Of a stretch of 64,000 nucleotides of DNA, positions 15,769 through 62,249 are shown in pieces (the stretch's first letter is position 1; the number at the start of each line of letters is the position of its first letter). A model generated the notes under the pieces. It made no database searches and was not told the origin of the DNA. It saw only the letters and a program-made list of their open reading frames with translations. The stretch is from Geosiphon pyriformis uo1 (lineage: Eukaryota > Fungi > Glomeromycota). Where the stretch lies: assembly GCA_016748015.1 (NCBI GenBank), contig JAAOMT010000379.1, positions 71,966 to 135,965 of the forward strand. Reading direction: 5' to 3'. A program made the position numbers and the translations under genes.

Positions 15769-16898
15769 ATGGCGAATTAAGCTCTAGTTATGTCAGCTAT
15801 AGCAACCAAAATTGTTGAAAAAATACAATCTTAATTTAAAGATAAGTAGATCCAAATTTATTCAGTATACTTTTAAGTTGCTTAATGAACTTACAGATAA
15901 TAGAAAGAGGAATCAAGCACAAAGATGCCTCAAAGATGATTTCAAATTTAGTAATAAGCAGATAAATATATTGATTCCTATGCAAAAAAGTGGCTGGCAA
16001 AAAGACATAAATTTTACAACTCTAAGTAAGATTTCACATAGTGAAGCTGGACACTCCGACTCTATGCCAAATTCAGAAGAAACTATCAAAGAACTGGCTT
16101 AGTATATTTTGCACAATAATTTCAGCATAAAAGATGTAAAAGCTGAAACTCATAATTTGGTTAAATCAGTACCAAATGCTAATGTCATTTCATTACATCT
16201 TTCTCGATTCAGAAGAAAATTACAAAATCTCAGTGCTTTATCTGATATTATTGAGGCAACAAGATTTCCTAATATTATGAAAAAACCAATGAAATTCAGA
16301 GAGATCAGTGAAGAAAAGCTAAAGAACTTAAAAGAATCAATTATCTAGACTATTTCATATTAGAATCAGTAAAAGAGAAATTAAATAGTTATGTTGTATC
16401 TACTGCATCTAATTATCAAGTTTTTACTAATATTATGATAATGCTTAGTATGTGCTCTGTTAAAGTTAGAACTTTATGTATTACAAATAAAAACATAATC
16501 GACTATATAAAAAATTAGAATCAGCAAGATATCTACAAACATTTAGGTCTCTTGAAAAAAATCAAAAACATGCTAAAAAATTACTAACCTGAATACAAAA
16601 TGCTATATCTTCTAAAAAACTTGGCAATTCAGAGATCTTAAAGACTAAATGGTTCAATGTATTCTTAAAAAACTATAATTTTATTACTTGCTACTTACAA
16701 AAAATAGGTGCAGTTTATGCTGTTATGGTACATGGGACAAAAAATTTAGTCCATGTTATGACAATCACCCAAAAAGCCTTAAGGTATTCACCTAAAAATA
16801 ATACTTTTCCAACACAAAACTATGTTGTAGTCAATTACAGAAAGAGAGGCACTTTACCTAAGAAAACAAGACCATTCTAACTATATAGTGAAAATTAA
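15769..16898 (+). pseudogene. Intron-less tyrosine-recombinase-fold gene (degenerate)
   Basis: C-terminal translation ...IMIMLSMCSVKV...DYIKN...YLQKIGAVYA...ALRYS...QNYV; reversing C->T/G->A changes gives M-R-P-A-E, G-Y-x-K, L-R-K, L-R-H and N-Y, i.e. an R-K-R-H-Y catalytic series in the expected order. Confidence 0.6.
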
Positions 16899-23980: not shown

Positions 23981-24049
23981 TGTTTGTTGTTTTGTTGCTG
24001 TTAATTCAAATGGGTATTGGTTCTGTTTTCTAATCTTGCCTTATTCTTA

Positions 24050-27620: not shown

Positions 27621-27899
27621 TGCTTTTTGTTCATTTGCAGCAGTATTGCTGAGTAGAAATAGGAATTCATTGACTTTGAACTCAAAAGAAAAAATATCAG
27701 AGAGATTGGCATTTTTGGCAATTCTGGCTGGTGGAATAGTGGTGTGATTATGAGAAGGATTTTGTTGTTGTGCTGCAACTCTATCTTCCAAGAGTGCAAT
27801 ATGGTAAAAATTCTGTTCTTCTGGTATTGTTAAATAACTGGGTTGAGTATGATAGTGGTTGGGTCTTGGTTGAACAGAATTTCGGAGAACCAATTGGTT

Positions 27900-29685: not shown

Positions 29686-29702
29686 TCCGTAGGAGAGCAC
29701 CA
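29686..29702 (-). promoter_or_regulatory. Primer-binding site of the Gypsy element
   Basis: TGGTGCTCTCCTACGGA begins 2 nt inside the 5' LTR and is complementary to a tRNA 3' end ...GAGAGCACCA; tRNA identity not determined. Confidence 0.8.
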
Positions 29703-29704
29703 AA

Positions 29705-30684
29705 TGTTACCGGAGGTTTTTGGTCTCTTTTCTTAAATGTTGTTTATGCCTGTTTGCTGTGAATTCACGTTTTCTGGATGTGGTTGAACCTCCAGTAACT
29801 GAATTTATCTTCAAATTATCTCCTATAATTTGAACTGCTGGGCTTAGAGTAAAATGGCCAATTCTATGCCAATTACTTGACTGTAGTTATGTTGTAGTAA
29901 ACATCAACTTTTTTCCAAAAATTGCTTGTCTGGAAGCTCACTAAAAATGTGTAGTTACTTTGTTGTAAAAGTCAACTCTTCTACAGGAATCTTGTCTGTA
30001 GGCTACCTTAATAATTGTAATAAGAAAAAAACAGAAAAATAAAAGAAATGTAAAAGAAATAGGATTTTATCAAGGGAAACATTTTCTATTCAGGCCTGGA
30101 GTCACTAACAGTTTACTGAAATTGGTAGCTAATCAATTTCAAAACATTAGTTGGGTTTTTAGAGATTTTCCAAGTGTAATAATTAAAGAATTTGGTTTTT
30201 CGAATTTTTTGATATTTATTTCTTTTTGTGTGTATAGGAATGGTTCTAAGTGCTAAATCTAAAGTAAGATATATTTTCTCAAAAAGAAAAGCTCTTTTTT
30301 TATACAACTTGTCATAACACTATTTTATGAACTTGAACTTTGCTATTTTTTACAATTTTGCTAAACTAAAAATATATTTTGGCAAACTACAAGTTATTTT
30401 TGCAAACTATTAAATATTTCAGTAAACTATCAATTATTTCGGCAAATTTTTACAAATTTTGGTGAACTTTTTGAATGTTACATAGTTCAGAGTATTGCAT
30501 AATTGATCATCGCAATTAGGTTACATTTATGTTATGTGCAAATTGGGTTATTAATTAAATAATAATTTCAGACATTCTGCTAATGTAATAAGTGATAATT
30601 TGAATGATAATATATGCTAATTAATAATAGGAATTATAAAGATAATTTCATGCTAAATAATATCTCTAATTTTGTCTAATAACA
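29705..30684 (-). repeat. 5' LTR (~980 bp)
   Basis: TG...CA ends; direct repeat of 21554-22278. Confidence 0.9.
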
Positions 30685-30688
30685 ATAC

Positions 30689-33600
30689 ACCTTTGGATTA
30701 TATGGGGAATGACACTTTTTCTGGTGTAATACATTTTATTAGTATAAGTAAGTTGCTTTTGGTCATTGGTGGTTTATTTGATGAGAAGGCTGCTGGCTTA
30801 TTTGGCATCCCTAATGAGTTGTGGAAGCATGGTGGTGATGTAGTAATAAGTTGCCTGTTGAGACTGGTGAATGTGTACTTGAATATGAGTGGTGTGTCTG
30901 TCCTGTGGAGAAAGGCATAGGTTTCGATGATTCCAAAACCCTATGACTGGAATGGAGTTCTTATAAACACTCACTCTATTGCGTTAATTGAGACTTCGAG
31001 AAAGATTCTTTTGACCATATTTTATTTGTTTGCAGTAAATTTGGTGTTCTCCAAAGTGATAACTTTTCTGTGCTAAGGGGCACTTCTACACAGTCTTTAG
31101 TATTTGCTGTTGGGTCTGTTGTTAAAGATGCTCTTGAAAAAAACAGAGAAATTTGGTTGGTTTTATAAGATATATGAAAGGCTTATGATTTTGTTAGTTG
31201 ATACTATCTGAAGACTAGCTTGCTGCAGATCAAGATATATGACAGATTTATAAAATTTTTTGGTAGTATACATGAGAATAGAATTAATAAAGTCATGACT
31301 AATTTTGGTCTGTCTGATGGCTATAGGGTATATGATGAGTTAGATCAAGGCAAAGTTTTTTCACCTCTGCTCTGGAGGATATTTTATGATCCCCTTTTGT
31401 GTGAGATTAAGAGACATGAACATTTGTGTGAGTACTGGATTGATACCAAGTTTGTTTCAAAGTCAGAGAAGATTGAGAGTTGTGATGGGATGACATCTTA
31501 CTTTGCAGCTGGTGCAATTGTTGATGACATGATTTGGGTTGGGAGCTGTCAGACTTTGACTCAATATGCTTTGAATATTGCCAGTAAATTTTTTGAGGTT
31601 AATGGCATTTCCATCAACAATGATAAGACAGTTGCTATCCCCATTAATTAAGGCATTAAAATTGCTTCTTTGAATATTTGTGGTTAGCCAATTTCGATTG
31701 CCAAAAAAGGTGAAGTGCATCATTATCTAGAAATTTTTTTGTTTATTAAGGGACTGTTCAAGCCAAGTGTTGCCAAAGCTCATTCTGATGTTTGTTTTTT
31801 TGTTAATGTTGTGTTGAAGAAGACTATTACTGATAAGCAGTTTTCATATTTGGTGTTAGTGGTCTTGCAGCCTATTGTTAGCTATCAGATTCAGTTCAGT
31901 TTTGTTTCATCAAATGTTTGTCACAAGTGGGATGTCATAATTAGGAAGGGTCTAAAGCTTAAGGCCTGTCTTTCCTGTGACTTTCCCAATGTGGCTTTAC
32001 ATTACTCTTTGTTGTATGGTTTGAAAACCTTTGAGCAGGTTCAGTTTGAGAGTAAATTAGCTACTGTGGTCTTTTTTTCTAATGCTTTGGGCATTCTGGG
32101 GCACTTGTTCAATTATAGATTTTTGGACTTGCAGATTATGGGCTGGGCTCTTTTTAATCTCTTACAGTTTCCTGTCAGGTTACGTGTTAGTTCTGTGAAC
32201 AATTTTTTGGCTGGTATAGTAAAAATTTTCTTGTACAATAAACTGTCTTTGGTGAATAACCTGCCTAATGCCTTCCATAGTCCTGGTGTTTTTCCTATGT
32301 TGATGGTATTGGGAAACACTTTTTACTTCAGTTCTGTGCACTCTTTAAAGTATTTTGGTGTTGTATTTGGTGACAGGCTGCTGGATAAAAAAGGGCAGGT
32401 AATAGACTAGAAAACTTTTTGGCAGTAAAAAAAGCTTAATCTGAGAGATTCTGTCCCTTTCTGGTTCAGATAAACATCTCAATTTCTATGTACTAATGGC
32501 TCAGTGTTATCAAATATAGCACAGACTAATCAACTTCATGGTTTAAACATTTTAGATTCTCAGGAGTTTTTTGTTGTGCAGAGTAGCTTGCACGAGATTT
32601 GGTCTAGTTCATTTGACGTTTTTACAGATGATTCATTAAAAAATTTTGGCTCAGCTAATGTTTTCAGTGGTACAGCTGTGTACTTTTCTGCTGTGGATCT
32701 TAATCTTGGAATAAGGGTTTGGGGTTTGTTGTCTTTTACTTTAGCCGAGTTGCAAGCCATAGCTTTGGCACTAGAGTGCTGTTCATCTTTTTGTATGGTA
32801 GTGGTGCATACTGACAGTCAAGCTATCATTGATGCTTATGTATCTGAAATGTTTACTGCTGTTTCCAACTTCCGTGCTTTATGTTGGGTAAAAAGGCATC
32901 ATATTTTCAATTTGGTTTACGAGAAAGATCTCAATGTAAAGTGAATAAAGGTTAAAAAACATTCTGGGGTTTGTGGCAATGAGAAAGCTAATGCTGCAGC
33001 TGGTATTGCTATATGCTCTCAGTTTTTTTTGCCAGTGGGAGTTCATGAATGATTCTTGATAGCTAAGAACACGGTTGTATTTGGTAATGCCTGGTATTTT
33101 GTTCAAAATTTGTACAGATTTGTTTGTCATGCTCATTGGGAAGCTGGGGCTGGTCATGATATTATCTTGAGTGTGTTGATTGGAAGTGTTGACTGGAAGG
33201 CCACTTCAAAAGTCTTCTATTCTACATTTGTATTTGATGAAAGCTGTTCACTGACAGTTCTCAGTAGCAGTTAAAAAAAAATTGTATAATAAGAGCTATC
33301 CTGATGTGCAGTGTTTGCTTTGTGGTGAGATGAAACTGCTTAATCATGTCTTTTTGTGTGCCTTAGATGTTGGTGTTTGGGAGGAAATTCTGGCTGAAGC
33401 TTCTGCTTTATGGATTTCTTTGGTAGAGGTTAATTTTTTGTCTTCTTCTGCTGTTTTGTGGTTTCTTGGTCTTTGTTCTTCAGACATTGGTCTATACTCG
33501 GTTGTGTGTAAAAGATTTGTCATGAAGGATTGGTGTGCAGAAGCTGTTGGAGTTTTTAATAATAAGAAAGAGGCTGTGAGTGTTGTTGTCAATTATGTGA

Positions 33601-33995
33601 GACGTTTTGTTAAGTTGCATTGTTCTAGAATTTGGCTGGTGAGATCTAAGTATAGGGTAGATATAGAGAGGACTGGTTTGGTTAGAGATGGTAAACTGGT
33701 GTCAGGTCTCACACAGTGTATGGTGCAGATAATATTAGATAGTATAGTTAGAATGCTTAGCATTGCCAATTTTTTTACAGTTAGCTTTGGGTGTCATAAG
33801 TCTTGTCTTTTTTTTTCTGAGTTGGATTGTGATTCATGTGTTATTATAGGTGTATAGTAATGTTTTGTCTGGCCCAAGTGGCTGGCCACATATAGCAAGC
33901 ACATAAACCATATTTAGTTTGAGTCTCTTAGTATGGCTTTATGTATTAGATAATAGTTAGATTTTATTCATTAAATGCATTTAATAAAAAAATAA
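30689..33995 (+). mobile_element. LINE 3' half: RT, RNase H, C-terminal zinc finger, 3' UTR and A-rich tail
   Basis: QGKVFSPLLW and AIVDD (RT); VFTDDSL..AELQAIALAL..HTDSQA..KKHSGVCGNEKAN (RNase H); CLLCGE..HVFLC; stop at 33857; A-rich tail at ~33985. Confidence 0.92.
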
Positions 33996-35849
33996 AAATA
34001 AAAATTAATATAAAAAAATTATTGGCTAATATATATATTAATTAATAAAAATTTTTTTAATTATAAAATTTTTTTTTTCAGTTATAAATTAATTTGAATT
34101 TATATTTATTTTATATAAATTATTATTATTAATTATAAAATTTAATATTTAATATTTTATTTAATTTTAATATATAAATCTTATAAGTTTTACAAAATTA
34201 TTTAAAATTATATTAATATTTCAAATTATTTATAAATTATATTTTAGTTTTTTTATATAAATATTTTTATTACTTTTTGGTTTTTGTTTTTACATATTAT
34301 AATATAACAAAACTCAATAAAATATTTATTATTTAGATTATTAAATTTAAAATAAATACTATAAAAAAAAGTTTAATTAAAAATAAAAACATTTCAACTT
34401 TTAATTTTGTAAAAAATCTTATTAAAAATTAATTGTAAATAACAATAAGATATTTAATTAAAACATTAAATTAACATAGATTTACATATAAGTTGTATTT
34501 AATATAAAATATTTTATTGTTAAATTTATTTAAACAATGGTTAATTTATATTATATGCAAATAAATAGACCATAATTTACTAAATTTATTATTTATTTAT
34601 TAAAAAATTAGTTTTATTGTATTTAAATTCAATTATTTTGTTGATAATTGACAAACTATTACAGATATTACTTTAAAATTTAATTAACATATTTAGTTTT
34701 AATTATTAATTTAAAAATAAAACTAATAATCCAAAATTATTTTATTTGAAAAACTATAAAGTTTAATAATATTTTGGAAAATTAATTGAACAATATTTTT
34801 AAAGATTAACGTTTTTTTATATATTATTATAGTTTACCAATTGATTATTATAAAAATCGAATCTTTTTTATTAATAAAAAACAAATCTGTTATAAAATTT
34901 ATTTATATAATAACTTAAATTTTTAAAACACTTACATTCTTTTGTATTGTAGAAATAATAAAAAAAGTATATAATAAGTTAATTAAAATAACTTAAATTT
35001 ACTAAGATGTTTTTTGTTATAATATTAATAATTTTTTAAGTAGATATTTATTTATTATTTTAAAAACATTAATTAACTTAATTTTGTGTTTTTTTAAATT
35101 ATGCAACTATAACCAAAAAACTTAAAAATAACAACATAAAATAAACTTTTTATAATATTAAAAATTAATTAAAAAGTTTTTATTTAATATTCTCAAAAAT
35201 AATAAATTGATTAATAATAATTTTTAATAATATAAAATAATATTTATTTATAATCAATATATTTTGTTAAATTGTTAATTTTTATTAATAAAACAAGAAA
35301 TAATATTAAAATTAATTAAAATTATTACAATTACATTAAAATTTGATTTAAATATTTAAATATTTACAAAATAATTAAAATCTTAATAAAAACTTTTGTT
35401 TTTATTAGAATTAAAACCAAAATAAAACTGATTAATTAACATCTTCTTTTTTCAATTTACATTAATAAAATTTTTAAATATATGTTTAATTAACTTGTAA
35501 TTAAGCAAAAAAAAATTTATATAAGTATTTTTTAGCTGAATTATCTAAAAAGCTTAAACATTTAAATAAGATAAATTTATTTTATAAAAATAATAAAAAT
35601 ATATATATATAATACAGCAAAACAAATAAAACTATATAACAAATAATTAATTAATTAATCCAAAAAGTATTTAATAATTAATGTTTAATCTACTTAAAAA
35701 CCAAAAATTAGTTTAATTTTTTATATATATTTGAATATTTTTTTTAAATCTTATTATTAATTAACCAAATTAGTAAGTTAATTAAATATTCCAAAATATC
35801 TATTGAATTTTCTTAGTATATTATAGCTTATAAGAAATAACATATAACT

Positions 35850-36557: not shown

Positions 36558-38179
36558 CTACAAGAAAATTTTCGGAGAATTTCCAATCTTTAACTTTTTT
36601 AGCTTTGTTTATAGATTCTTATATAACTAAAGTAGTTGTGGAGGAATCACTGAAAGAATATATATTAATATTCGTATTGTTTAGCTCAGGTTGGGCAAAC
36701 ACATATGAATCATCATTGATTCACATGTAACTTAAAACAAATTATAGGGTAAATTGCTTATCCTAAAGGTGGCAATAATACTAATAACCTTAGATTGCAC
36801 CTGGTTATTTTTAATAATAAAAGACATTTGTCATGGTTTAATTTAATCTTTAATTGAAAGTTCGAAATATATGCACAAATGGGTTGCCAAAAAGATTTGG
36901 TGAAAACAAATTTTAACTGATAAAAACACCCAAGAAAGAGAATATGTTTGTCAATTATTATTGGACAGTATTTGTGTTAGAAATTGTTTTAAGCGATTGG
37001 AATTAATGATTATTTAAGAAGAAACAATAGTGATTAAACATATATTGTTGATAACCATTCTGAAGATCAAATTCTCCAGGAAATCAAGCAATAAGAAAGG
37101 TGCTAAAACACCTAAAATCCAATCAGTTTTTAATGAAGTAAACTGATTCAAATGGCTAAATTAGCTTAAAACTCACAAGTATTCAACCAAAGAGGATTAA
37201 AGACATGTTATTTAGAAAAAATCCTGTTTAAGCAATGATTCGTNNNNNNNNNNNNNNNNNNNNNNNNNNNNNNNNNNNNNNNNNNNNNNNNNNNNNNNNN
37301 NNNNNNNNNNNNNNNNNNNNNNNNNNNNNNNNNNNNNNNNNNNNNNNNNNNNNNNNNNNNNNNNNNNNNNNNNNNNNNNNNNNNNNNNNNNNNNNNNNNN
37401 NNNNNNNNNNNNNNNNNNNNNNNNNNNNNNNNNNNNNNNNNNNNNNNNNNNNNNNNNNNNNNNNNNNNNNNNNNNNNNNNNNNNNNNNNNNNNNNNNNNN
37501 NNNNNNNNNNNNNNNNNNNNNNNNNNNNNNNNNNNNNNNNNNNNNNNNNNNNNNNNNNNNNNNNNNNNNNNNNNNNNNNNNNNNNNNNNNNNNNNNNNNN
37601 NNNNNNNNNNNNNNNNNNNNNNNNNNNNNNNNNNNNNNNNNNNNNNNNNNNNNNNNNNNNNNNNNNNNNNNNNNNNNNNNNNNNNNNNNNNNNNNNNNNN
37701 NNNNNNNNNNNNNNNNNNNNNNNNNNNAAACGGACCGACCCTCTCAAAGCGGAAGAAGTTACAACGACATGCCAAGAAGGCGAAGGTCGAGATTTTCTAC
37801 AATCCGGTTAAAGTAAGTTAAATTATATAGTTAATATTTTTTAGCGGCTTCGAGATACATTGCATATATTGTTCGACAGTTGAACTTGAAGTATAGGGGC
37901 AATCATTCGCCTTTCGAGGCAAAGTCTAGGGGCTGATTGAACCCTCCCTCGCAAAGTTTTACTTTATATATTTTACCTTCAAGAATGGGTTACCAAATTA
38001 TTATTGTCCTTTAGCAAGGAGAGAAAGATCCGATACGCTTTCTAAAACCTCCGAGCTATTTATAGGATGAGAAATTTTTTGTGTGTATCCTTCTTATTCT
38101 TTTTGAAATCTATAACTCCTTGAAATATATTACCCCTTTAATATCTACATATATTCATATCTATTATATATTTTTTTCT

Positions 38180-39339
38180 TTGCACAAAACACAAGCGGAG
38201 ACTTGCAAACTTACAAAAAAAAGAAATCCGTGATTATATTCGGTCATGTTGGGTTTATGAGGACATTAAACCTGACGATCTTATCGAAAAACTTTTCGAA
38301 GATAAATTTCAAAGACATTACCGAAATAAATTCAACCGATTTAATTTCCAATGACAATAAAGAATTCTCGGTACCCACTCAATATTTAGAGTTGTTGGAG
38401 TATGAAATTTTTCACGCTAGAGACCCTTTTAGATCAAACCTCTTCAGAACTGTGGAAAAAGTTTGAACAGTGGGCAGGTTTTGAAAAGAATAAAAATTTC
38501 GACATCATTGCTATCACCTATGGAAAAAAAACAAAGCACGCATACGAACTACATATGGAAGCCCAAAAAAGTCCTATGGAACTTTATGATATCCCGAATG
38601 TGTTCCTATGCCGTCCGAACGATAAACTTTTTATAGCGAATGAAGCAACTAAGAAGATTGCGGGTGACGTTCATCTAGACGGTTACAAGTATGTTTCTAA
38701 ACCTAGGTGTTTTAAAAATGCAATTGGTGAAACGATGATAGATTTCTTCGATCTCAACAACCACCTGGCCGTAAAGACTGCACGAGTGATAGTAGATCAA
38801 CATTATAAACAAACCTTAGTGAGCCTTCTCATCGATCTAACCAATTCATCAAGGATTTAATAGAACATTTCGGTTGTTTTACCGATAATAATAATATACC
38901 ATATGTCACTTCGAATCCTGCTTTTACACATTCCCAGGAGCATCGTAAGTGTGTTCAGGATTTGATTCGAGGACTTCAGCCACTTTCCGACGCAGTAAAC
39001 AATTATATTAACAACGCATATCCAGCATTATACGCTAAAATGAAAAAACTCAACTTACGTCTTAACACTCCTAAATTTTTTGGAGCCTTCCCCACTATTA
39101 GTATTAACTTTAATAGCATCTGCCAATTTCATCGAGATCTAAAAGATCATCTTAATACACTCTGTATCGTCTGCCCTCTCAGAACGTTTGAGGGTGGGCA
39201 TCTAGCATTTCCTGAACTAAAGTTGGCAGTTATGGTGAAGCAAGGGAAAATGAATAAAGCGGGATATAGCGATTTGTCTTCGGCTAGGAAATTAAAAATT
39301 TTTTCTAGTTATTCAGGCCATAGTAAATACAGTATATAA
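38180..39339 (+). pseudogene. TET/JBP-type 2OG-Fe(II) dioxygenase, copy 1 (CpG-retaining, C-terminally deleted)
   Basis: GAFPTISINFNSICQFHRDLKD..FEGGHLAFPELKL shows the HxD motif in DSBH context; frameshifts at ~38430 and ~38815; the segment with the distal His and RxS is missing after KQG (~39245). Confidence 0.75.
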
Positions 39340-39922
39340 CGAGGTAATAAAAAATACTTATCTTTAATTTAGGGAGGCTTAACCTCGTTGCTCCGCAACC
39401 CCGAAATCTCTCACGATTCTTGCTCTAACACGCGTGTCCATAGAGTAAAATCCATGGTTCGTAGTTACGCGCGTCTGATCGCATATATTCTATAAACGAT
39501 AATTGCCTCGACTAAAGTCGAGTTTTTCGCACGTGTTATATATGCTAATTTATCCGCTTCACGGAATCGGAGATAAGTCAGCGACTCGCGAAACCTTTGA
39601 TTTCCTCTCCTTATACCAATTTATTTTTGTATATGTCCCTTCGAGTAAATAAAATACTGCTAAACCCGAGTTTCTGTGAAACAGATCTCATGTGCTACAG
39701 ATATTGTGAATAGTGCCGATTCGGACTTGCCAATCATAAGCTAGCTAGTAGACTGCTGATTGTTTTAGCTCGTGACTCATGCATTTTCTTTGTGAAGTTT
39801 TTTTTTCCCAAATCTACTATTCCCATACTTGGACGAGACAGAGAAAAACGTTTTAAAATAACAGTATATCTACATTATGTTTATTTATTGCTCTCTACTC
39901 AAAAACTTTTACAACTGAAAAT

Positions 39923-42045
39923 ATGTCGACTATTGTATTTAACAAAATTTTTGACTTTATGAGAGATGAACCAGTGAAGCATGTCACAGCAGGGTCAGTA
40001 ATTTATATAGGCACAGAAGACGATCAAACAATATCAAAAGATGAACTCTTAAAGCTGACAATTGATGCAATTCGGTCCATGAAAAACATTGCTGGTGAAG
40101 ATTCTGAACGCTTTAGAAAGATTTCTAATATTCCTTTAGAGGTTAGTTATTCTCTTTTTTAGACATTTTTTATACATTATGATGACAACGCAGATATCAC
40201 TTGACAAAGTCAAAATAAATACCCGAGCCTACAAGTACATCAAGTTGCGACTTTCGAACGTAGTGAAAGGTGTTTCGACTCCGTGGAGTAATATTTAGAT
40301 AAGTTAGAGTCCTTGTGGCGGCCGAACAAGGATGACAACTTTAGGATATTTCTGATTGTGCGTGCAAATGGAGGGAGATAATATATACATTATCAAGTTA
40401 TACTAACAAAATATTATTCTGCATCAGTTTGAATGCGCCTATGAAACCATCTGTAGTCTACGTGATATCAAGGCGTTAAAAATGGTATGACAGATTACTT
40501 TTTGTAACAATAATATCTATGAATTTAAACTAATATGTATATATATATAAAGAGTAAACAAGTTCTTGATAATGATACGATAAAGAAAAATAGAAGATAT
40601 TTACAAGGGAGACTTTCAAGTGATTCTTCTTCCCTTTCTGTGGAACTCTATGAAAACATGAAAAATATTTCCATTACAAATCTAACCTGGAAAGATCCTC
40701 TAGCTAGTCGAATTATAAGTGATGATTCCATCATTGTAGAAAATTTGTCACCTAAACAGCATCAAGAGTTTTTGGTAAGAATAACTTCGTTTTTCTCTGT
40801 TGTAATTAAAATTTTAATTAAATTGATCTTTCAACAGAAACCAGCACATAATATGGTCGTCACACTCCCAAACTCGGTCCAAGATAAATGCCATGAGTTC
40901 GTATTAAGGTTTTCAGAAAAATATACTAAAGATTTATGTATAAAACTTGTGCATAATGAGAAATGGAAAGAGTCAGACGAAATTCTTATGGGGGTTACAG
41001 ATAATATTCTTGATGTATTGTAAGTAGTTTTCAAAACGGATAAAGTTATAGAATCCTTGAATTGATAATTTTATATTATTGATTATCAGGGATGATGTTT
41101 GGATGAATCCAGCATTTGGACCAGAACTTATGAAAACACAAAGTGAAGAAACATACATAACAAACATAATAATTCCTTTGATTCGAGCATCATTGAAAGG
41201 GCTTCCATATAGGCAATTTGGATTTATAAGCACGTAAGTTGTTTATTATAAGTGATAATATATTTATCACCACCAAATTCACATTTTTAGAAAATTACTA
41301 TAGTGCGGAGCGACAAAGCATTGCCAGTGCAGATAGGAAAGAGGATGGATATTTCAGAAAACGACCAGATTTTATGTACTTACAAAAACAGGAAGGCAGG
41401 ATATTTGAGCTGGTATTTGGTGAATGCTCACGTTTATTATGTAGTGATACCAAAAAAAAGGAAGATGAAATTAAATTGTGGAGGGAATTGAATGATGGAC
41501 TTTTTTGGGTACGACAAGGGTGTAAACTAGAAAATGATCAATTTGGTGTTGTAGGAATTCAGGTAGCAGGTAAAGTCTTGGTATTGTAAGATTATTTCAG
41601 AATTTTTCATTGTTTGTCAATTTAATAACAAAATATGATATTATAGGGACTGAGATCCAATTGAATGTACTTATCAAAGACAATCTCGATATACACCGAT
41701 ATTATCATCTGAAAAAAACCCAAATTCCAATACAGTGGTCTAAACAAGCTTTATCAACCTTACCTGAATTTGTTGAACTATTGTTGAATTTACGGGTATT
41801 TATTCTAATACATCAAATTTTATTTATATGTACAACAAAAGTAATTTTATTTTATATAGAATATCCTGGTCGTTAATTTATCTCTGTTAATGCAAGTACC
41901 TATAAGTAAAACGCATCGTGTCGAAAAAAGTATCACCATATCATCACTTAGAAAAGAAATACCTGACGAACAAAACAAAAAGAGACAGAGAAGATCCAAG
42001 AAAACATTAGGATCTATTAAGCATAGAAAAACTGCATATTTTTAG
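39923..42045 (+). CDS. Multi-exon gene with C-terminal PD-(D/E)xK-like nuclease domain (Crinkler/REase-like); possibly disrupted
   Basis: Several short GT-AG introns; KRPDFMY..FELVFGECS..KLWRELNDG..GIQVAG; last exon ends at TAG 42043-42045; an apparent lesion near 40290. Confidence 0.65.
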
Positions 42046-42384
42046 AATATAAATACTATAAATGATTGCTTTGTATTTCTATTTGTAATAATAAGAACTT
42101 GGTTATTTTAGGTGTAATCACGTTGGTTATTTTTTTTCCAGATAATATGGAGTGCAGTCTGATTTATCAGCCACATGATCTAGTCTAAAGTCGTGCAACC
42201 CAAAATAGATTTATATAGATATATCTCGAAATAGATTTTACAAGTGTCTTTTATAATTGAAAGCATAATATCAAGCTCTACTCATCCAATTTAAAAGATG
42301 TATTCTATGAGTTGGAGATTCGCTCTTTATGGAAAGCACAAAGTGATATTGTTCTACAATCTTCAAGTTTCATCATAATAGAAT

Positions 42385-43038
42385 CTAACTATCAAGCTTT
42401 AATGGCTGGTTCTAACCTTTGCAAAAATAAAAAGGGTCCTCTTTTGGTCTAGTCAACAAATTGTCAGCTTTGCAAATTTGTATAATATAACTCAGATTCT
42501 TTTTTATTAATTTTGGACAGTTGAAAAAACTTTGTGTTACATAGATTGAACTAATGTTAAAGTAATGTCTCTTAGTAAAGTAAGGGACAATTTTCTCTTG
42601 TATTTTTTTAGGCTCAGTACATAGACTTTCAAATATAATCACTGTCCCTCTTTCGGAAGAAAACTCATCAATTTTTGGTATTTTTTCAGACTTCATTGAT
42701 CAGAATGTAATATTTTCTTGATATTACTTTGGACTATTTAAAATTATTCAGTAACAATCCTTTAGGTATCTATATTTCAGCTCCTTAAGATAATGTCCAA
42801 TCAAAACCAGATTATCATTTTTAATATAGTATATTCCACCTTTTTTCCTATTAAATATTCGATACATCTTGTTTCCAAGTAAAAGACTAATAACTTCATT
42901 AGTTTTCCCCAATCTAGTTTGCCCTGAAACCACCATAGTAAATGACCATTGGCATGTTAAATTTAATCCATTAAACTTCTCTAAATGTTTGTATTTATCT
43001 ACATTCAAAACTATTTTCTCAACTCGATCAAGCTTCAT
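42385..43038 (-). pseudogene. A32/FtsK-HerA-type viral DNA packaging ATPase (degenerate, intron-less)
   Basis: Walker [12 protein letters not shown] (GQTGSGKT after transition reversal); Walker B VIIFESL; [20 protein letters not shown], which becomes YFTxGRHxNISxIYVTQ after reversal (A32 arginine-finger/Gln motif). Confidence 0.85.
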
Positions 43039-43149
43039 TTTAATAAAGATAAGTACTAAATATTAGATCAAAAATTAAAGATCTTTATTGCTATATATAT
43101 ACCGAATTTTTTATTTGCAGAGCAAAGACACTTATGTGCCCTTTGATAA

Positions 43150-43440
43150 ATTATCATTTCGCAAGTAACTTTTCTCTCGCAATATATGCAGAATATAGGA
43201 GAAGGGTCTGCTGTATGTGGAATCTCAATGAGATCTATATCTTTTCACTTACATATATCCCGTTTTTTTTGTCTTGCAGTTGCTGATTTGTCAAATTACT
43301 TTTACCATCAGTTTAGTAGTATAAATAATAAACACTATAATATTGAGATTCTTGGTATTCCTATGCCAATTTTAGCTTTTTATCATATCTATCAGATCAA
43401 AGCCCATCTAAAAATTTAGCCTTATGAGAAAATTGTGTCT
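43150..43440 (-). pseudogene. Vsr/DUF559-like endonuclease of the type common in NCLDVs
   Basis: Manual translation FLDGL*SDRYDKKLKLA*EYQESQYY...QQLQDKKKRDICK*KDIDLIEIPHTAD, cf. LELDGY..LxLAxEYQGxQHY..QxRDxxKxxxCxxxGIxLIEIP. Absent from the ORF track. Confidence 0.75.
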
Positions 43441-43754
43441 GAAATTTTACATAATGTGTTCAGAATTTTATGAAGTCATATGTAATAATCAGGAGCATAT
43501 TAAAAATCTCATCTCGTATATGTCAAGACTGCATAGAAAACCATTTGGAATTCATTAGGAATTATGAGTCTACATATATAATACAGAATTTTTAAATGCA
43601 CATTGAACTCCATACTTTAAATTCAGATGTGTTGTATTTCTCATATAAATTTTATATGTTTCAATGTGATGCATTCAAAAATTCATATCGAATTCTTAGA
43701 TAACTTATAATGGCATATTATGTATATGAAATCTCTTAGTACAAATTCACTAGT

Positions 43755-45810
43755 TGTAATAATGCTACTATTTGGATATTACAAAAAGAAAAAAGTGCTA
43801 AGCCATAGAATAGTACTATGATAAGTTGTATAAAAAAAAAGCTTTCTTTTGAAGAAAATATATTTTAACTAGAATTATTTTTCTTAGTATCAATTTCAAT
43901 TCAGAAAATTGTTACAAATCTATTCAAATAAAAATTCACTTTAAAAATTCAAAATTCTTAATTATTACTCTTTCAAAATTACCAATAATTAAAACTAACA
44001 TTTTAAAATTGATTAGCTACTAATTTCAGTAACTGTTAGTACTTCCAGGCTTGAATTAGAAATGACTTCTTGGAATGTAATTTTATTACTTTTTTTCTTT
44101 AAATTTTCTTTAATTCTTTTATATTATTAGATAGTTTACAGTTGAGATTTTCTGTAGAAAAGTTGACTTTTACAGCAAAATAACTACATATTATTGAGGA
44201 GCTTACAGCTTAAAAATTCTTGTAAAAGAGTTAATCTTTACTGCAAAGTAACTACATTAGTAATTCACATGAAATTTGGCCATTCCATTATAAGTCTAAC
44301 AACAAACATAGTCCAAAGTATCTTTTTATACTTTGGAAGATAAATTAGCTTATTGAAGATTTACCAGCTTCTATTAATAACAGAATTAACAGTAAAACAA
44401 CATTGATAACATTAAAAAAAAAAGATAAAAAACTTTTAATAACATTAAGTGCTTTTTTAAGAACAATACAACAACAATTAAATTAAATTGAAGATCATAT
44501 TTGACATAAAAATTCTAGAATATTATCAGTCAATTTACATCTGCTGCAAACAAAAATTTGGAATACAATATAGAATCAAAGTTGTTAAGAAAATGCTTTT
44601 TTAATACATAAAAAATTGAGTCAATAATTATTTCTTTAAAAATTACAATATTACAAAAGTTAAATAAAATCTTTTTAAAAACTTACTTTTACTATTTAAA
44701 TGTAAAATCAGAAGTCATTAGTGCAAATATTTGCATTATTTATTTCCAAAAACTTCATATTTAGTTAAACAACTTTTAACATATCAAAAAGCATTGCTAA
44801 ATACTTATTAATATTATGAATTAACAATCAACAACTCTGCTATTTTTACACACAAATTAGCTATCTTACTATATTTAAAGACCAAAATTTTTATTAAACT
44901 GCATTTTTGCAATAAAATTGCAGTTTAAACACAAAGCCTTTTTCACAATATTAAAATTTTATTAGCCAAAATAGCTCAAAACAATAACTTATCTAATATT
45001 TTTCAATTTAAAACCGATAAATCACCATTTTTGTTAAATAATATAACTATTTTTGAACAAAAAACAATTACTATAATGTACCCTAAAGTTAAAATTAAAA
45101 GAAAATTAATTTGGTTAATCTTAAATATTAAATTTACTAAAAGTATTATTATTTATCAGTTAATACAAAACTCAAACAAGATGTTAATAAACCAATTCAA
45201 ACAGTAATTATTATTGCTAATAGTATAAAAAAAATACTAATCTAAAAAAGTCGAATACATTGAGTAAATCTTAGAATTTGCTAGATTAAGTTACAAAAAT
45301 AAAGTTGAATTATACTATATAATATTTAATTATTGTTACTTACTAAAAAAAACCCAAATTCAATATTTAAAACAAATAAACATTCAATTATGTGAAAAAT
45401 ACATTATGTTTACAATAACCAGTAATGTTTAAAATACTATATTATTAGCATACCATTACTTACTAAAGAAAATAAATATAAAATTGAATTTAAAAAATTA
45501 AAATTAGAAAAAAAAATCTCAATAATGTTAATTTATCTTATCAAAAGCTTATTTGCATTACAACTCAAGTATTTTAACAACAATAAGCAAAAAATTAAAC
45601 CAGAAAAAGCCCACAAAATAGATGCTAAATATGATTTACGATATTTAGAAAAAGATATCTTGGTTTTACAACCAAAATTATTAACAAAATTAATTTTAAA
45701 ATTGTTTTAAAATCTCACTAGGAGCAATAGTGCAAATTATTTTTCAATCATTATTGACAAGCAAAATTAATATGAGAAAAATAATTATAGATATTAAATA
45801 TACAGAAAAA
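43755..45810 (+). mobile_element. Heavily decayed, internally deleted relative of the dUTPase Gypsy
   Basis: 43770-44444 matches the reverse complement of the LTR, ending ...aataaca followed by the degenerate PBS ttaagtgc; protease remnant LILNIKFTKSII (~45110); dUTPase start LQLKYFNNNKQKIKPEKAHKIDAKYDL (45555-45640). Confidence 0.85.
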
Positions 45811-47789
45811 CTTAAAAATTTAAATTAACTAAATAATTTACAATTCTAATAAATATAGTTTTTATTATACTATATGATTTTGGAAAAGTTTATATTAGAA
45901 TTTTTTAATCATTTTTCTGATTTTATAAAGATGTAAATAATAATTCATCTTTAAATATAGTTTTGGCTAACCAATAAGTTTTTTGCCAATCTTAAAAAAG
46001 ATTGGTTTAGAAAGCAAAATAATAAATAATAAATAATAAATAATAATTATTTTTTAAAATTAAGAAACTGATTTAATGGTCTTTCTAGCAATAATTTTAA
46101 TGTTTACATTGAACTTGGAATACATTTAGTTATTATAATAAATCAAACCATTAATTTTTAAATTTATATAAATTTTTAATTTCTAAATCACCAAAATTCA
46201 AGAAATCACTAAAGTTTACATTTTTGGTTAAAATTCTCTAATTTTTTAAGTAAACTTAAAAATATTTAACTTGAACAATGTTAAGAAACAAAATTATAAG
46301 TTTTTTGTTTAAGAGCTTTTTGTTAGTAGCAGTAGTAGTGAAAAAACGGCAAAAAAAAGCCAAAAACCAGTTTTATTAAATATTTTAAATAAGTATAGAA
46401 AGCCAAAGAATGCTAAAAATGCTCAAAATTTTGGTAATAACAAGAAAAAAATTGCAACATTGAACAGTAAAGCAATGTTTAATAAAGGGTATTAAAAAAA
46501 AGCAGATTGGAAAAGCAGATTATAAATGACATGTTGACACAACTGGCAAAAGTAAAAAATTTGAAATACTTGTTGAAAACTTAACAAAAAATTAGGAAAA
46601 AGAATTTTATTAATCAAGATACAAAACTTAAAAAAATAATATATATTTTTGTAAATAGCTATATTCTTATTGCTGTCTCTTATTCAAAAGTGCTTATTCA
46701 ATGTTAGTGTTAGAAATTTTTTACTTTAAATATTAATTTTATATTGCTATTGCAAGTTTGGCCAAAGAAAATATTTTAATTGTAATTAATACTATTAAAT
46801 CTGTGCAAATATGTTTATATTGAACTTTATAAAGGTATTTTCTTTCATCTAATAAATAATATTTCCTTTCTACCTAATTTTGATTATGTGGTAAAGTTTT
46901 TCTCAAATGTAAATCACAATAATCAGTTTTTTTTTTATATTCTTTTTTCCTTGAACTAATGTTGTTTAACTATAAATAATCTAAGTTGTTTTAGTACTCA
47001 AAGACATCAAATAAATTTTCTATTGTCTTTTTGCTTAAACAAATAGTTCTAACAGATCTGTAAATAAAAGCTTAACCACTGTTACTTAAATACAATAAAC
47101 TAATTCAAAAACATAATACCCAAAGAAACATCATGAATTTACAATTAATTAGCATTTATCAAATAACCTATTAATTTAGATATAAAGATTTCAAATAAAA
47201 ATTAATATAAAGACCAGAGGCAAAATTTATTTTTTTAAAGCACAAATTAGAAAAGTTTTATATATATATTTTAATATGCAAATTAATAATGAAGTGTATA
47301 AGAGTTTCATATTTAAAAAATAGTATTCTAGGTTTTTAAGAGTTTTTGAAAATAATAAGTTGACCAGTTTGAAACTTGTAAATTTTTTTAATTATATATT
47401 AAAAAAAATTCAATATAATAGCCAAGCTAAAAATAGAATAAAAAAAAACAAATTAATTAAAAATATGGACTTGAAATTTGTTAATAATAATAATAAAAGA
47501 AGATAATTAGAAATAGAGTATTGTTTTAGAACAATTAAGATTTATAAATTTGAAAAATCTACATATTTGGTTTCAAATATATGAAATATAGTTAATTAAT
47601 TTTTTTTTAGATACAACAGTTGGTTTAAATTTCAGATTAAAATATATTTATATAGCCATCTTAAGTCTACACAGCAATAACTTATTATTATAAAAACATT
47701 ATTTTCTATACTGTGCAATAAAAAACATAAATTAATACAATATATTTTATTATAAAATTTCAATGAGCTAATTTATTATACTTATTGAG

Positions 47790-49180
47790 ATGATTCTGCT
47801 TATAGTTTTTAATTTTATTGTAAATTTTTGAGAATCCAACTTAGGAGGAGAATATTTTTGCGGTTTCTTATTGTGCCTTTTAATATTATTCACAATTAAG
47901 TAAGTATTATCTAAAATCTCCATCATTGAAAAGAGAGCCAAATTTCCGTTTTTGTTTTATAATAGTGTCATAAATATAGAAGACAATGCTATGTTTTAAC
48001 TTAATCATTATTAGAAAATTTCTATGAACTAAATAACATGACTGAAAAGTGATTTTCTGTTCTTGCTTTACCATAACTGCCAACTTTAGTTCAGGAAATG
48101 CTAGATGCTCACCCTCAAATGTCCCAAGAAGGCAGACAATACAGAATGTATTATAATAATCTTTTAAATCTCGATGAAATTGACAGATTTTATTAAAGTT
48201 AATACTAATAGTGGAGAAAACTCCAAAAAATTTAGGAGTGTTAGGATCTAAGTTGAGTTTTTTTATTTTAGCATATAATGCCAGATATGCATTGTTAAGA
48301 TAATTGTTTACTTTATCAGAAAGTGGCTGAAGTCTTCAAATTAAATCTTGAACACATTTACCATACTCCTAGGAATGTATAAAAATAGTATTTAAAGTAA
48401 CATATAATATATTGTTATTATTAGTAAAACAACCAAAATGTTCTATTAAATCCTTGAAAAATTGATTAAATCGATGAAAAGGCTCACTAAAGTTGTGTTT
48501 ATAATATTAATTTACTGTCATTCATGCAGTTTTTATGGCCAGGTGGTTGTTAAGGTCAGAGAAATCTATCATCATTTTATCAATTGCATTTTTAAAACAC
48601 TTAGGTTTAGAAACATACTTGTAACCGTCTAGATAGATGTCATTTACAACCTTCTTAATTGTTTTATTTGCTATAAAAAGTTTATCATTTGGATAACATA
48701 GGAATAAATTCAGGATATTATAAAGTTCTATAAGATTTTTTGGGGCTTTTATATGTAGTTCATACATGTGCCTTGTTTTTTTTCATAGATGGCAGCAATA
48801 GTGTCAAAATTTTTTAGTCTTTTCAAAACCTGTCCACTGTTCAAACTTTTCTCACAGTTCTGAAAAGTTTTGATCTAAAGGGTCTTTATCATGAAAAATC
48901 TCACATTCTAACAACTCTAAATATTGAGTGAGTACTAAGAATTCTTTATTGTCATTGGAAATTAAATTGGTTGAATTTATTTTGGTAATATGTCTTTGAA
49001 ATTTATTTTTTAAAAGTTTTTTGATGAATGTAGACCTTAGATTAAAGAATGTAAATGGTTGCAATATATTGGCTGATTTAAAATCATCAGTTTTAAAGTC
49101 TTTAGAAACCCAAAATAACCAAATATAATTACGGATTTCTTTTTTTGTAAGTTTAAAAGTTTCTATTTGTGTTTTGTGCT
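47790..49180 (-). pseudogene. TET/JBP-type dioxygenase, copy 2 (C->T decayed, retains C-terminus)
   Basis: Reverse-complement homologue of 38180-39245 (similarity extends upstream, 37750 vs ~49610); adds ITFQSCYLVHRNF..KHSIVFY, i.e. the distal His and (R)xS. Confidence 0.75.
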
Positions 49181-49751
49181 AAAAAAATATATATAATAAA
49201 TATGAAAATATGTAGATATTAAAGAGGTAATAGATTTCAAGGAGTTATAAATTTCAAGAAGAATAAGAAGGATATATGCAAAAAATTTCTTATCCTATAG
49301 ATAGTTCAGAGATTTTAGAAAGTGTATTGGATCTTTTTCTCCTTACTAAAAAACAATAATAATTTGGTAATCCATTCTTGAAGGTAAAATATATAAAGTA
49401 AAACTTTGTGAGGAAAAGTTCAATCAGTTTCTAAACTTTGTCTCGAAAGACAAATGATTGCCCCTATATTTCAAGTTTAACTATCAAACAATATATACAA
49501 TGTATTTCGAACTTGCTAAAAAATACTACTATATAATTTAATTTACTTTAACCAAATCATAGAAAATTTTGACCTTCACCTTCTTGGCATGTTATTGTAA
49601 CTTTTTCCGCATGTTCTGCTTTGTTTATTACTTGATGTGTCTATTGCTTGCTTAATTCCTCCAAAATATACAATAGTTCTAATAGTAAAAAAAACATAGA
49701 ATGAAAAGTTGCTGGTGGAATAAAAGAATAAGACACTTGTTTGAATAACAT

Positions 49752-49838
49752 ATAAATTTTCTTTTGTAAGACTACTGATCAAATCACCATCATGATGTCA
49801 GATGGCAATGATCAGCAGTCTTACTAAAGAAAATTTAT
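49752..49838. repeat. 87-bp imperfect palindrome (30-bp arms, 2 mismatches)
   Basis: ataaattttcttttgtaagactactgatca / tgatcagcagtcttactaaagaaaatttat, with an inner ccatc/gatgg pair. Confidence 0.9.
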
Positions 49839-49924
49839 TGTGTTTTTGTTTTGGAATAGCAGTTTGGAAAATTATTTTATTTTATTTCTTCTAACTTTCA
49901 ATGATTGTTTAGCTCTTGTCACTT

Positions 49925-50200: not shown

Positions 50201-50317
50201 ACCTAATATTTTTAAATATTGAGTTTTTATTTCTGTTATTCTATTTTTTTTCTTTTAAAAAAGCCATCTTGATGATTAGAAATATTTGGCCTGCTATTTT
50301 TTTCACTATTCTTTTTT

Positions 50318-51311
50318 TACTCATATTGTTTATGTGGTCTTCAGATGATAGATAATGTCTGAAAGTGTAAAGAAGAGATGTTATGCTTGTCTTCAGACAG
50401 TGACCTTTTCAATACAGTTTTGTTTACTAGTTTACCCTTAGGTGATCAGTCAGCAGAAGTGCAAGTGGAAAAATCTCACTTACCTTCAAGTGGTAAACTT
50501 TCTACTTGTAAAGATAAGCTGCCAAGTTTTGTGTAGTTCTCAGACAGCAAACTGGTGGCAATTTTTTCTCTACCCACATTGTCCATGCAGTTTTCAGACA
50601 GTAGATAATGTCTGGAAGTATGAAGAAAAAATGTCATGCTTGTCCTCAGACAGTGACTTTTTCAACACAATTTTGTTTACTGGTTTACTCTCAGGTGATT
50701 AGTTGGCAGAAGTACAAATAGAAAAATCTTACTTATTCTCAGGTGGTAAACTTTCTACTTGTAAAAATAAGCCACCAAGTTTTGTGTAGTCCTCAAACAG
50801 CAAACTGATGGCAAGTTTTTTTCTATTTTTGTTTTACTCACATTGTTCATGCAGTCCTCAGATGGTAGATAATGCCTGGAAGTGTGAAGAAGAGATGTCA
50901 TTCTTGTTCTCAGACAGTGATCTTTTCAACACAATCTTGTTTACTGGTTTATGCTTAGGTGATCAGTTGCAGAAGTACAAATAAAAAGATCTCACTTACC
51001 CTCAGATGGTAAACTTTTTACTTGTAAAGATAAGTCACCAAGATTTGTGTGGTCCTTAGACAGCAAACTAGTGAAGACTGATAATAGTTGGTATTTTTTG
51101 GTCCAACTAAATCCAGATTTAATTTCTCAATTTGTATTTTTTTGCATTGTATTACTTACTACTTATTAAGTTAACATTATACTCTCAAGATTCAACTAAA
51201 TCAATTTGTGATTACGCCTAATCTAATAAAAGCTTTCTGTAACAGTTATCTTATGTGGTTGAAGGTACAGTATTATTAGAATTTTTAATTAATACATAAA
51301 ACCCAAAACTC
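50318..51311 (+). repeat. Tandem array copy 1: three ~255-bp units plus a ~240-bp unique end module
   Basis: Anchor ccaag(t/a)tttgtgt at ~50522, 50776 and 51038; end module finishes ...atacataaaacccaaaact. Confidence 0.9.
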
Positions 51312-51485: not shown

Positions 51486-52592
51486 ATTTTTATATTAGCT
51501 GTTTTTAATCTATTTATAACTGACAATATTATCTTATTTTAACAAATGCTGCCCTTTTGGAGATGAGGTTTACCAAAATTGAATCCGAAATAGAGCTGGT
51601 TGAGTCTGTGGATATATTGACCACATGTCTTTTAGAATTACTTTATAGTAACTCTGATTTTTGAATCGAATTTTTCCTTAACAGAACTGAGAAGTATGTT
51701 TTCATTTTGTGTACTGTTCTTAGTGTTTATTAGTTTTTGTTTCCATTTTTAACAATAATTTTACACTTTGTTTTCTAAGAAACTCAAAAAGCACTCCAAT
51801 GACAATAAAAAATAGATCTGATCTTCTTGGATATGTTAAAAATGTACTAGTTGGTTCCACTGTTCACAAAACTTTACCTGGATGATCTCAATGTTTGATA
51901 CACAGCTGTTAAGATAAGCATTAATATTGTTTATATTCTTAAAACCATGATTACAAAGAATGTTTTTCCTGCTAATGTAATCCCTCTTGGTAAGCCACTT
52001 AAACTCAGAAATTCTACAATTACTTTCTTTGAAGAGTATGTTAAAAAAGTTGTTTTGAACAGTAGACTCTATGGTTTTTATGGCTGTGTTGATATGTTAA
52101 AGATTATCATAGACTCATTCAGGTCTTGGAAGGACCAATTTTTAGAGCAGGTTGGCCAGAGGAATATATAATCAAACTAAAGACACGTGGAATTGAACAC
52201 CCACCAAAAAATGAGCAAACAACATGGATAATAACATGCAATTTGCTCACTGGACTGAAGAGATTTCATCAATGCAATTACATTCATTGCAACATTCATT
52301 TATTGAATATTGTTTACAATTCAAATAATTCCAAAGGGTATGAAAATGTTCTTATTGATTTAAGCATAGAGATAGAGCAAACAAAGAATTCGACATCTTA
52401 TTGACAGACTGAGATGATGGCACATCTGATCAGAATAATATATACACAACTCTTTTAGACATTTATCATTTAGGCAAGTTATTAAAAGAGCTTAATACAG
52501 TGTTTTCCAATGATAGACAGAACTTTATAAACAAATTAAAAATTAAGATGCTGGAAGCAAATACAGCACTTAAACATCCATAGATTGCTTAA
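51486..52592 (+). pseudogene. Crinkler-type protein kinase-like pseudogene
   Basis: LLTGLKRFHQCNYIHCNIHLLNIV..VLIDL (degenerate HxDxxxxN and DF motifs), DIYHLGKLL, ALKHP*IA*; the 5' boundary is approximate. Confidence 0.7.
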
Positions 52593-62040: not shown

Positions 62041-62249
62041 TTTAAGCAGTTCTATTACTTAGTTTTTGCTATTTTACAACTTATAGTTAATTATTATATA
62101 TAGTTTAGTTTTGTTTTAATTAATATTTACTATAAGTAGAATGTTTTAATTAGAAAAAATTTAAAAACTAAATTGCTTAAAAACTTTTTTAATAAAGCTT
62201 TATATTATCTATTACTGTATTATTTAAAATTTTTTAAATAGTTGTAGAC

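What the first reader, a model, noticed from the sequence alone, without database searches (positions are those of the whole stretch)
37730..49840. Candidate endogenous DNA-virus-like element pairing a packaging ATPase with a TET/JBP base oxidase
Seen: within ~12 kb lie intron-less genes for an A32-type packaging ATPase and an adjacent, co-oriented NCLDV-type Vsr-like nuclease, flanked by two inverted copies of a TET/JBP-type dioxygenase; an intron-less tyrosine recombinase lies ~21 kb upstream. Established: A32 ATPases mark Polintons, Polinton-like viruses and NCLDVs; many PLVs integrate via tyrosine recombinases; fungal TET/JBP genes are known mainly as cargo of KDZ/Plavaka transposons, whose transposases are not visible here. 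Inference: a fungal Polinton-like or NCLDV-related element carrying its own DNA-base oxidase, possibly to counter host methylation silencing. No capsid or DNA polymerase is seen, and the linkage could be chance clustering in a TE graveyard.
Basis: partly seen in the sequence, partly recalled or inferred. Interest (0 to 1): 0.9.

Follow-up and report, generated by a model that had tools for sequence, protein, structure and literature searches.

The report
Relic of Gag-bearing fungal Polinton
This is a dead fragment of a many-copy, likely Polinton-derived mobile DNA of mycorrhizal fungi, whose intact relatives pair a DNA-virus packaging motor with a retrovirus-type capsid gene; the two broken DNA-oxidase genes beside it may be cargo but are not shown to be.

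Summary
The genes are real but all broken. The window is Geosiphon pyriformis by protein match. The A32 ATPase (42362-43041) and the nuclease upstream of it are the eroded core of an element family found in several mycorrhizal fungi. In relatives the nuclease is fused to an rve integrase (14 of 18 loci with 1 kb upstream), not a tyrosine recombinase. Head-to-head with the integrase lies a Gag-like gene (5 of 6 loci long enough) with a retroviral capsid fold, zinc knuckle and retropepsin. This fits the Glomus Polinton, published as ATPase-positive but lacking a jelly-roll capsid. The two TET/JBP copies are not terminal repeats: 82.7% identical, intron-containing, one truncated, one with 7 stops, with a spliced gene and a Gypsy relic between them. 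The recombinase relic lies beyond a LINE and a full Gypsy. TET as cargo stays open: an Acaulospora gene model joins TET to three genes that flank the ATPase in another locus, but TET1 is far less eroded than the ATPase and long contigs were unavailable. No polymerase or terminal repeat was seen.

The parts
42362..43041 (-). A32-type packaging ATPase pseudogene (no intron, 4 internal stops, internal deletion)
   Evidence: nested among Gag-linked ATPases in tree
43170..43430 (-). Frameshifted endonuclease domain; in relatives the C-terminus of an rve integrase or a stand-alone zinc-ribbon nuclease
   Evidence: DNA profile hit 43018-43422, E 5e-43
43783..45806 (+). Decayed Gypsy LTR plus internal fragments; lies where the integrase and Gag would be
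   Evidence: 69-72% to 21554-30461, inverted; contigs of other copies stop matching near 43779
37749..39249 (+). TET/JBP copy 1: intron from 37813, frameshifted, 3' truncated before the distal His/Arg; CpG preserved
   Evidence: (100% to G9A89_020846)
39249..39326 (-). F-box start fragment, co-oriented with the ATPase, abutting the TET1 break; F-box/LRR genes sit beside the ATPase in 3 loci and in Diversispora gene models
   Evidence: (iE 7e-7); junction spanned by a contig
39900..41900 (+). Intron-containing multi-copy gene convergent on the ATPase; no Pfam family; restriction-endonuclease-like by recalled motif; spliced contig with 0 mismatches
47780..49660 (-). TET/JBP copy 2: full length, 7 stops, heavily C-to-T eroded
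15800..16880 (+). Tyrosine-recombinase-superfamily relic (ResT/TelK-like lead); not linked to the element by any test here

Best explanation
The ATPase and nuclease are the dead, retrotransposon-truncated core of a many-copy, likely Polinton-derived element of mycorrhizal fungi whose intact form carries an rve integrase and, head-to-head with it, a retroviral-type Gag-protease, while the two TET/JBP pseudogenes are probably members of a separately multiplied family that landed beside it. Shown: the gene order [protease-Gag] <- -> [integrase-zinc ribbon-nuclease] -> [ATPase] -> <- [variable genes] in relatives, the capsid fold of the Gag, and the decay of this copy. Inferred: the intact element inserts by the DDE integrase; Gag, cleaved by the retropepsin, would form the particle in place of the missing jelly-roll capsid and cysteine protease; the ATPase would load DNA into or onto it; a protein-primed polymerase (reported for Rhizophagus, not seen here) would copy it. 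This copy died by methylation-type C-to-T decay and a Gypsy insertion at 43783.
For: 80 loci kept of 102 relatives in a truncated metagenome scan. Integrase profile hit in 14 of 18 loci with 1 kb or more upstream; Gag-like ORF in 5 of 6 loci with 1850 nt or more (4 by profile; L028 by BLAST; in L007, L028 and L044 only its N-terminal coiled coil is on the contig). L044 integrase matches Pfam rve at E 2e-9. The Gag domain model (pLDDT 88.5) has retroviral or retrotransposon capsid domains (incl. domesticated PEG10, Arc, PNMA) as all of its top 32 structural matches, best PEG10 CA Z 10.6, rmsd 2.1 over 80 residues; Foldseek agrees but with no E under 0.001. Longer homologs end in a retropepsin (Asp_protease_2 E 5e-5); no RT domain in 26 of 26 scanned or in the precomputed domains of 117 hits. 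Window ATPase nests inside the clade with Gag-linked members on three branches (quick tree). Krupovic 2014 Table S1 lists Glomus P_Gi1.2 as ATPase +, MCP -, penton -, protease -. For TET being separate: CpG kept in 37730-40500 (105 of 513 C) but lost in ATPase-nuclease (9 of 218), Fisher p 1.5e-9; TET has an intron while the core has none; no TET hit in 83 loci or 148 ATPase representatives.
Against: The window copy itself holds no integrase or Gag, so its membership rests on the ATPase tree and the nuclease. Some close relatives have a stand-alone nuclease and no integrase (L043, L058, L080; L040 has neither), so this copy may be of such a subtype. No polymerase, terminal repeat or target-site duplication was seen anywhere; loci are 1-6 kb. 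The no-TET result has almost no power: only 1 of 80 loci reaches 3.1 kb downstream of the ATPase. P0057 and P0050 link TET to genes of the ATPase arm. The CpG contrast could reflect local lack of methylation at a transcribed gene rather than age. That Gag and ATPase act together is untested.
Confidence: 0.55

Rival explanations
1. Same core, but TET/JBP is true cargo of the variable arm: 37730-43780 is one element (TET, F-box fragment, nuclease-like gene, ATPase, nuclease), and TET oxidises 5mC to keep the element unsilenced.
For: Acaulospora colombiana gene model P0057 strings together a homolog of the window's 40.4-41.5 kb gene, TET, and three ORFs that lie in the same order on the strand facing the ATPase in L042; its last piece is 81% and 67% identical to the ATPase-adjacent ORFs of L003 and L001, which are in the window ATPase's subclade. 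P0050 also joins TET to one of these families. TET1 faces the ATPase like the arm genes (35 of 43 loci have a convergent coiled-coil gene there) and abuts an F-box piece typical of the element. 26 of 33 TET homologs keep the HxD..H..R motifs. TET1 sits in the only CpG-preserved stretch from 30 to 55 kb.
Against: Only 2 of 106 TET proteins examined show such fusions (most are metagenome fragments that cannot show one). P0057 is a predicted multi-exon chimera and does not show the ATPase. In P0050 TET appears to interrupt the other gene, as an insertion would. The three Diversispora TET tags and nine ATPase tags seen share no scaffold number (lists incomplete). TET2 has no element gene beside it.
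Confidence: 0.27
2. The family is an unusual LTR retroelement with an inverted integrase gene that captured a viral ATPase and nuclease; its RT lies beyond the contig ends.
For: Gag with capsid fold, zinc knuckle and retropepsin in retrotransposon order; rve integrase; no DNA polymerase seen.
Against: No RT in 26 long Gag-protease gene models; integrase is on the opposite strand upstream of Gag; its C-terminus resembles Polinton integrases (recalled, not tested); Starrett 2021 Fig. 5 legend lists Gag and retropepsin among genes of PolB-bearing elements.
Confidence: 0.12
3. One reading: a Polinton-like virus integrating by the tyrosine recombinase at 15.8 kb, or an NCLDV fragment, bounded by inverted TET copies.
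For: The ATPase's distant relatives include three IMG/VR contigs at 25-28% identity, two with recombinase-like ORFs and one (L083) with a weak Tet_JBP match (E 0.03) two genes from its ATPase. Removing the LINE and Gypsy would bring the recombinase within a few kb of TET1, on the same strand.
Against: Those viral ATPases fall outside the fungal clade (SH-aLRT 100); the recombinase relic hits none of 80 loci; relatives use rve; TET copies differ by 17% and in completeness.
Confidence: 0.04

Closest known systems
Glomus/Rhizophagus Polintons (Polinton-1_GI, P_Gi1.1, P_Gi1.2; Krupovic 2014 PMC4028283 Table S1 rows read; Bellas and Sommaruga 2021 PMC7805220 passages read)
   Same: Host group; ATPase present without jelly-roll capsid, penton or cysteine protease (P_Gi1.2); rve integrase in relatives.
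   Different: Identity with these sequences was not tested (no reference available). Polymerase and terminal repeats not seen. Neither source's passages mention Gag. Oliveira 2025 (PMC11952901, passages) says Mavericks are expanded exclusively in Glomerales, whereas this ATPase is in Geosiphon, Diversispora and Racocetra.
MELD elements of Starrett et al. 2021 (PMC8502044, section 3.4 and Fig. [quoted passage not shown]
   Same: [quoted passage not shown]
   Different: Which element bears that label could not be seen; the section read does not discuss it, and no TET gene is named in the legend.
TET/JBP-carrying fungal DNA transposons (Kojima 2025 PMC12730594: abstract, introduction, part of methods read; Iyer 2014 recalled)
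   Same: Multi-copy TET/JBP gene in a repeat-rich fungal region, proposed anti-silencing role.
   Different: Known from Pucciniomycetes, Agaricomycetes and Pezizomycetes with DDE or Helitron transposases; the paper's main text has 0 hits for Glomeromyc, Rhizophagus or Polinton. No transposase was recognised beside either copy here.
Ty3/Gypsy and Ty1/Copia retrotransposons
   Same: Gag capsid fold, zinc knuckle, retropepsin, rve integrase.
   Different: No RT found; integrase divergent from Gag and fused to an endonuclease; A32 ATPase follows.

Membership tests
Polinton/Maverick | rve integrase | tested here: met
   Met in relatives (L044 rve E 2e-9; 14 of 18 long loci); absent from the window copy.
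Polinton/Maverick | protein-primed family B polymerase | not testable with these tools
   No contig extends beyond Gag; no genome held. None recognised in the window's ORF list.
Polinton/Maverick | A32-type packaging ATPase | tested here: met
   PF04665 on homologs.
Polinton/Maverick | double jelly-roll major capsid, penton and cysteine protease | tested here: inconclusive
   None among recurrent neighbours in 80 short loci; a Gag-retropepsin is the recurrent neighbour instead.
Polinton/Maverick | terminal inverted repeats and target-site duplication | tested here: inconclusive
   The only long inverted repeat around the ATPase is the TET pair; ends are lost to a gap and a Gypsy.
Tyrosine-recombinase Polinton-like virus | recombinase inside the element as its integrase | tested here: not met
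   Relic lies 25 kb from the ATPase beyond two retroelements; no hit in 80 loci; relatives carry rve.
NCLDV endogenous element | further NCLDV core genes nearby | tested here: inconclusive
   None in the ORF list read by eye; the six-frame Pfam scan of the whole region could not be run, only selected pieces.
TET/JBP dioxygenase | Tet_JBP domain with HxD, distal His and Arg | tested here: met
   Met for the family (26 of 33; intact homologs E about 1e-14); both window copies are broken.
TET/JBP dioxygenase | activity on 5mC | not testable with these tools
   Model too poor to use (pLDDT 49.8); no solved relative at E under 0.3.
TET-carrying transposons (KDZ, Plavaka and others) | transposase beside the TET gene within terminal repeats | tested here: inconclusive
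   None recognised in ORFs or in TET gene-model fusions; no KDZ or Plavaka profile was run.
LTR retrotransposon | RT-RNase H after the protease | tested here: inconclusive
   No RT in 26 gene models; DNA beyond the protease not available.
LTR retrotransposon | integrase in the pol frame, same strand as Gag | tested here: not met
   Head-to-head with Gag in 5 of 5 loci holding both.

The most novel reading that the evidence does not exclude
Mycorrhizal fungi of several orders harbour a Polinton-derived DNA element that swapped its jelly-roll capsid and cysteine protease for a retroviral Gag and retropepsin, kept the A32 motor to fill that capsid with DNA, and ferries host-type cargo, TET/JBP dioxygenases among it, in a variable arm: a DNA virus in a retrovirus shell with its own demethylase, and a possible vehicle for the gene-family expansions of these genomes.
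Probability: 0.15. Interest if true: 0.9.

Novelty: new variant of a known kind. Interest (0 to 1): 0.55.

Why it matters
The Glomus Polinton is a standing exception: a packaging ATPase with no detectable capsid (PMC4028283 Table S1; PMC7805220). A conserved Gag-protease with a retroviral capsid fold next to the integrase offers a testable answer, and a chimera across two virus realms would surprise specialists, although one figure legend in 2021 seems to have annotated it already. The family also reaches Archaeosporales and Diversisporales, wider than a 2025 survey states for Mavericks. An intact, multi-copy TET/JBP family in Glomeromycotina lies outside the three fungal lineages covered by the 2025 TET-transposon survey. 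The window copy itself is dead and lacks the Gag.

Tried and rejected
No genome held for co-occurrence counts. IMG/VR scans with integrase, TET (single and alignment) and Gag found nothing; the ATPase found three distant contigs. Prokaryote genome scans with ATPase and TET found nothing. No phage match; no useful PDB sequence match for ATPase, Gag or TET. TET structure model unusable, so no fold search. No RNA holder listed; run X4 laid nothing. TET pair as terminal repeats: rejected (17% divergence, one copy truncated). A weak hit of an arm gene at 35748-35837 (E 7e-4) was not recovered by profile and is set aside. Reversing transitions to rebuild ORFs was not done; intact relatives were used. 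Five look-ups of earlier findings gave nothing bearing on this locus. Zhao 2023 (PMC10640383, passage) found no A32 ATPase in five R. irregularis genomes with giant-virus markers; my named ATPase hits also include no Rhizophagus, though Gag homologs do; this is unexplained. Other papers seen only as term passages: PMC5294986, PMC11075540, PMC4409740, PMC5751038, PMC12344493, bioRxiv 2021.03.30.436303 and 697771; PMC3671162 gave no hits. Supplements of bioRxiv 697771 (maps, accessions) could not be seen and may show the Gag-bearing element in full.

Full report
Setting. The window is AT-rich with six N gaps. TET copy 1 matches G9A89_020846 of Geosiphon pyriformis at 100%. It is a repeat graveyard: a Gypsy with 89%-identical LTRs (21554-30461) and RT and dUTPase domains sits inside a LINE-like element. 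No genome was held, so context came from metagenome loci, gene models and assembled runs.

ATPase and nuclease. The frame 42362-43041(-) has 38 homologs among 158 candidates, several with Pox_A32, named ones from Diversispora and Geosiphon. This copy has four internal stops and a deletion. Of 46 with 300 nt or more upstream, 36 have the nuclease on the ATPase strand; of 18 with 1 kb, 14 have integrase sequence; of 43 with 250 nt downstream, 35 have a convergent coiled-coil gene. In L044 the nuclease is the C-terminus of an rve integrase (E 2e-9) with all three acidic residues; the L007/L022/L028/L061 lineage has lost the third. In the window only the nuclease domain survives; a Gypsy relic begins at 43783.

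The Gag. In 5 of 6 loci with 1850 nt upstream an ORF starts about 50 nt from the integrase start on the other strand. It has a long coiled coil, a domain whose model (pLDDT 88.5) matches retroviral and retrotransposon capsids in all top 32 rows (best Z 10.6), and a zinc knuckle. The capsid part is on the contig in two of the five loci. It has 117 homologs, named ones from Rhizophagus, Glomus, Diversispora, Cetraspora, Gigaspora, Entrophospora and Paraglomus; longer models end in a retropepsin and none of 26 scanned has RT. The window ATPase nests inside the clade whose Gag-linked members lie on three separate branches, and apart from three viral-contig ATPases (quick tree). I infer that Gag linkage is ancestral for the clade.

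What is in print. Krupovic 2014 lists Glomus P_Gi1.2 with ATPase but no capsid, penton or protease (supplement rows); Bellas and Sommaruga 2021 still found no capsid; Yutin 2015 includes a Rhizophagus protein-primed polymerase in a tree legend. Starrett 2021 has a Fig. 5 legend entry for Gag and retropepsin in PolB-bearing elements; I could not see which, and the supplement search was empty. Searches listed no paper whose title or abstract start describes a Gag-bearing fungal Polinton; I opened 15 papers in part, and subscription journals are not covered. So the architecture is probably annotated once but little discussed.

The TET copies. They are 82.7% identical; 159 of 206 substitutions are C-to-T or G-to-A from copy 1 to copy 2, hitting 53 of 106 CpG cytosines against about a quarter in other contexts, as expected from 5mC deamination (inference). 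Copy 1 is frameshifted and ends at 39249 against an F-box fragment; a contig spans that junction. Copy 2 has 7 stops. Both have an intron; a contig of run X2 skips it with two differences from the window. The family is intact elsewhere: 26 of 33 homologs keep the catalytic motifs. Summed contig depth in X1 is several times that of unique contigs over TET, the middle gene and the ATPase, which suggests many copies but is no copy number. The middle gene (39900-41900) has a contig in X2 that skips its introns with no mismatch; the tool guesses X2 is DNA, X1 lacks these joints, so I read it as cDNA.

Is TET cargo? For: gene model P0057 of Acaulospora colombiana joins a homolog of the middle gene, TET and three ORFs found in the same order facing the ATPase in L042; P0050 joins TET to one of them. 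Against: 2 of 106 TET proteins show this, no TET occurs in 83 loci or 148 ATPase representatives, TET has an intron, and CpG is kept over TET1 but lost over the ATPase (p 1.5e-9). The negative counts are weak because only one locus is long enough. I put cargo at about 0.3.

The recombinase. The relic at 15800-16880 has no family hit; the Atlas points to a Mucoromycota family and to ResT/TelK. It matches none of the 80 loci. It is not the element's integrase on present evidence.

Verdict. Observation partly confirmed, interpretation partly supported. A dead member of a likely Polinton-derived family with a retroviral-type capsid gene; new variant of a known kind; interest 0.55. Polymerase, termini, particle formation and TET activity are all untested.

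Noticed in passing
   Followed up: partly
L007:465-2036, L022, L028, L061: A widespread lineage whose integrase lacks the third catalytic acid while Gag, nuclease and ATPase stay open; possibly non-autonomous.
   Followed up: no
window 37730-40500: Only stretch from 30 to 55 kb with CpG observed/expected above 1 over consecutive bins; covers TET1 and the start of the spliced gene.
   Followed up: partly
window 15800-16880: Relic of a Mucoromycota family resembling telomere resolvases (ResT/TelK); its intact members and their context deserve a look.
   Followed up: partly
window 21554-30461 within about 18000-33900: Gypsy with dUTPase, nested in a LINE-like element with a weak RNase H match.
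   Followed up: partly
window 50297-51310 and 59692-62043: Two inverted arrays of 250-264 nt tandem units; a kinase-like fragment (by eye, no Pfam hit) at 52093-52404; contigs skip about 88 nt pieces here.
   Followed up: no
window 49752-49838: Hairpin with 30-nt arms, 93% complementary, just upstream of TET copy 2; could be an element end.
   Followed up: no
window 9432-10969: Apparently intact BTB-like plus TLDc gene (TLD E 5e-12).
   Followed up: no
L004:866-1409; P0483, P0485, P0486: Another uncharacterised Cys/His-rich gene family faces the ATPase in L004 and precedes the coiled-coil arm gene in Entrophospora.
   Followed up: partly
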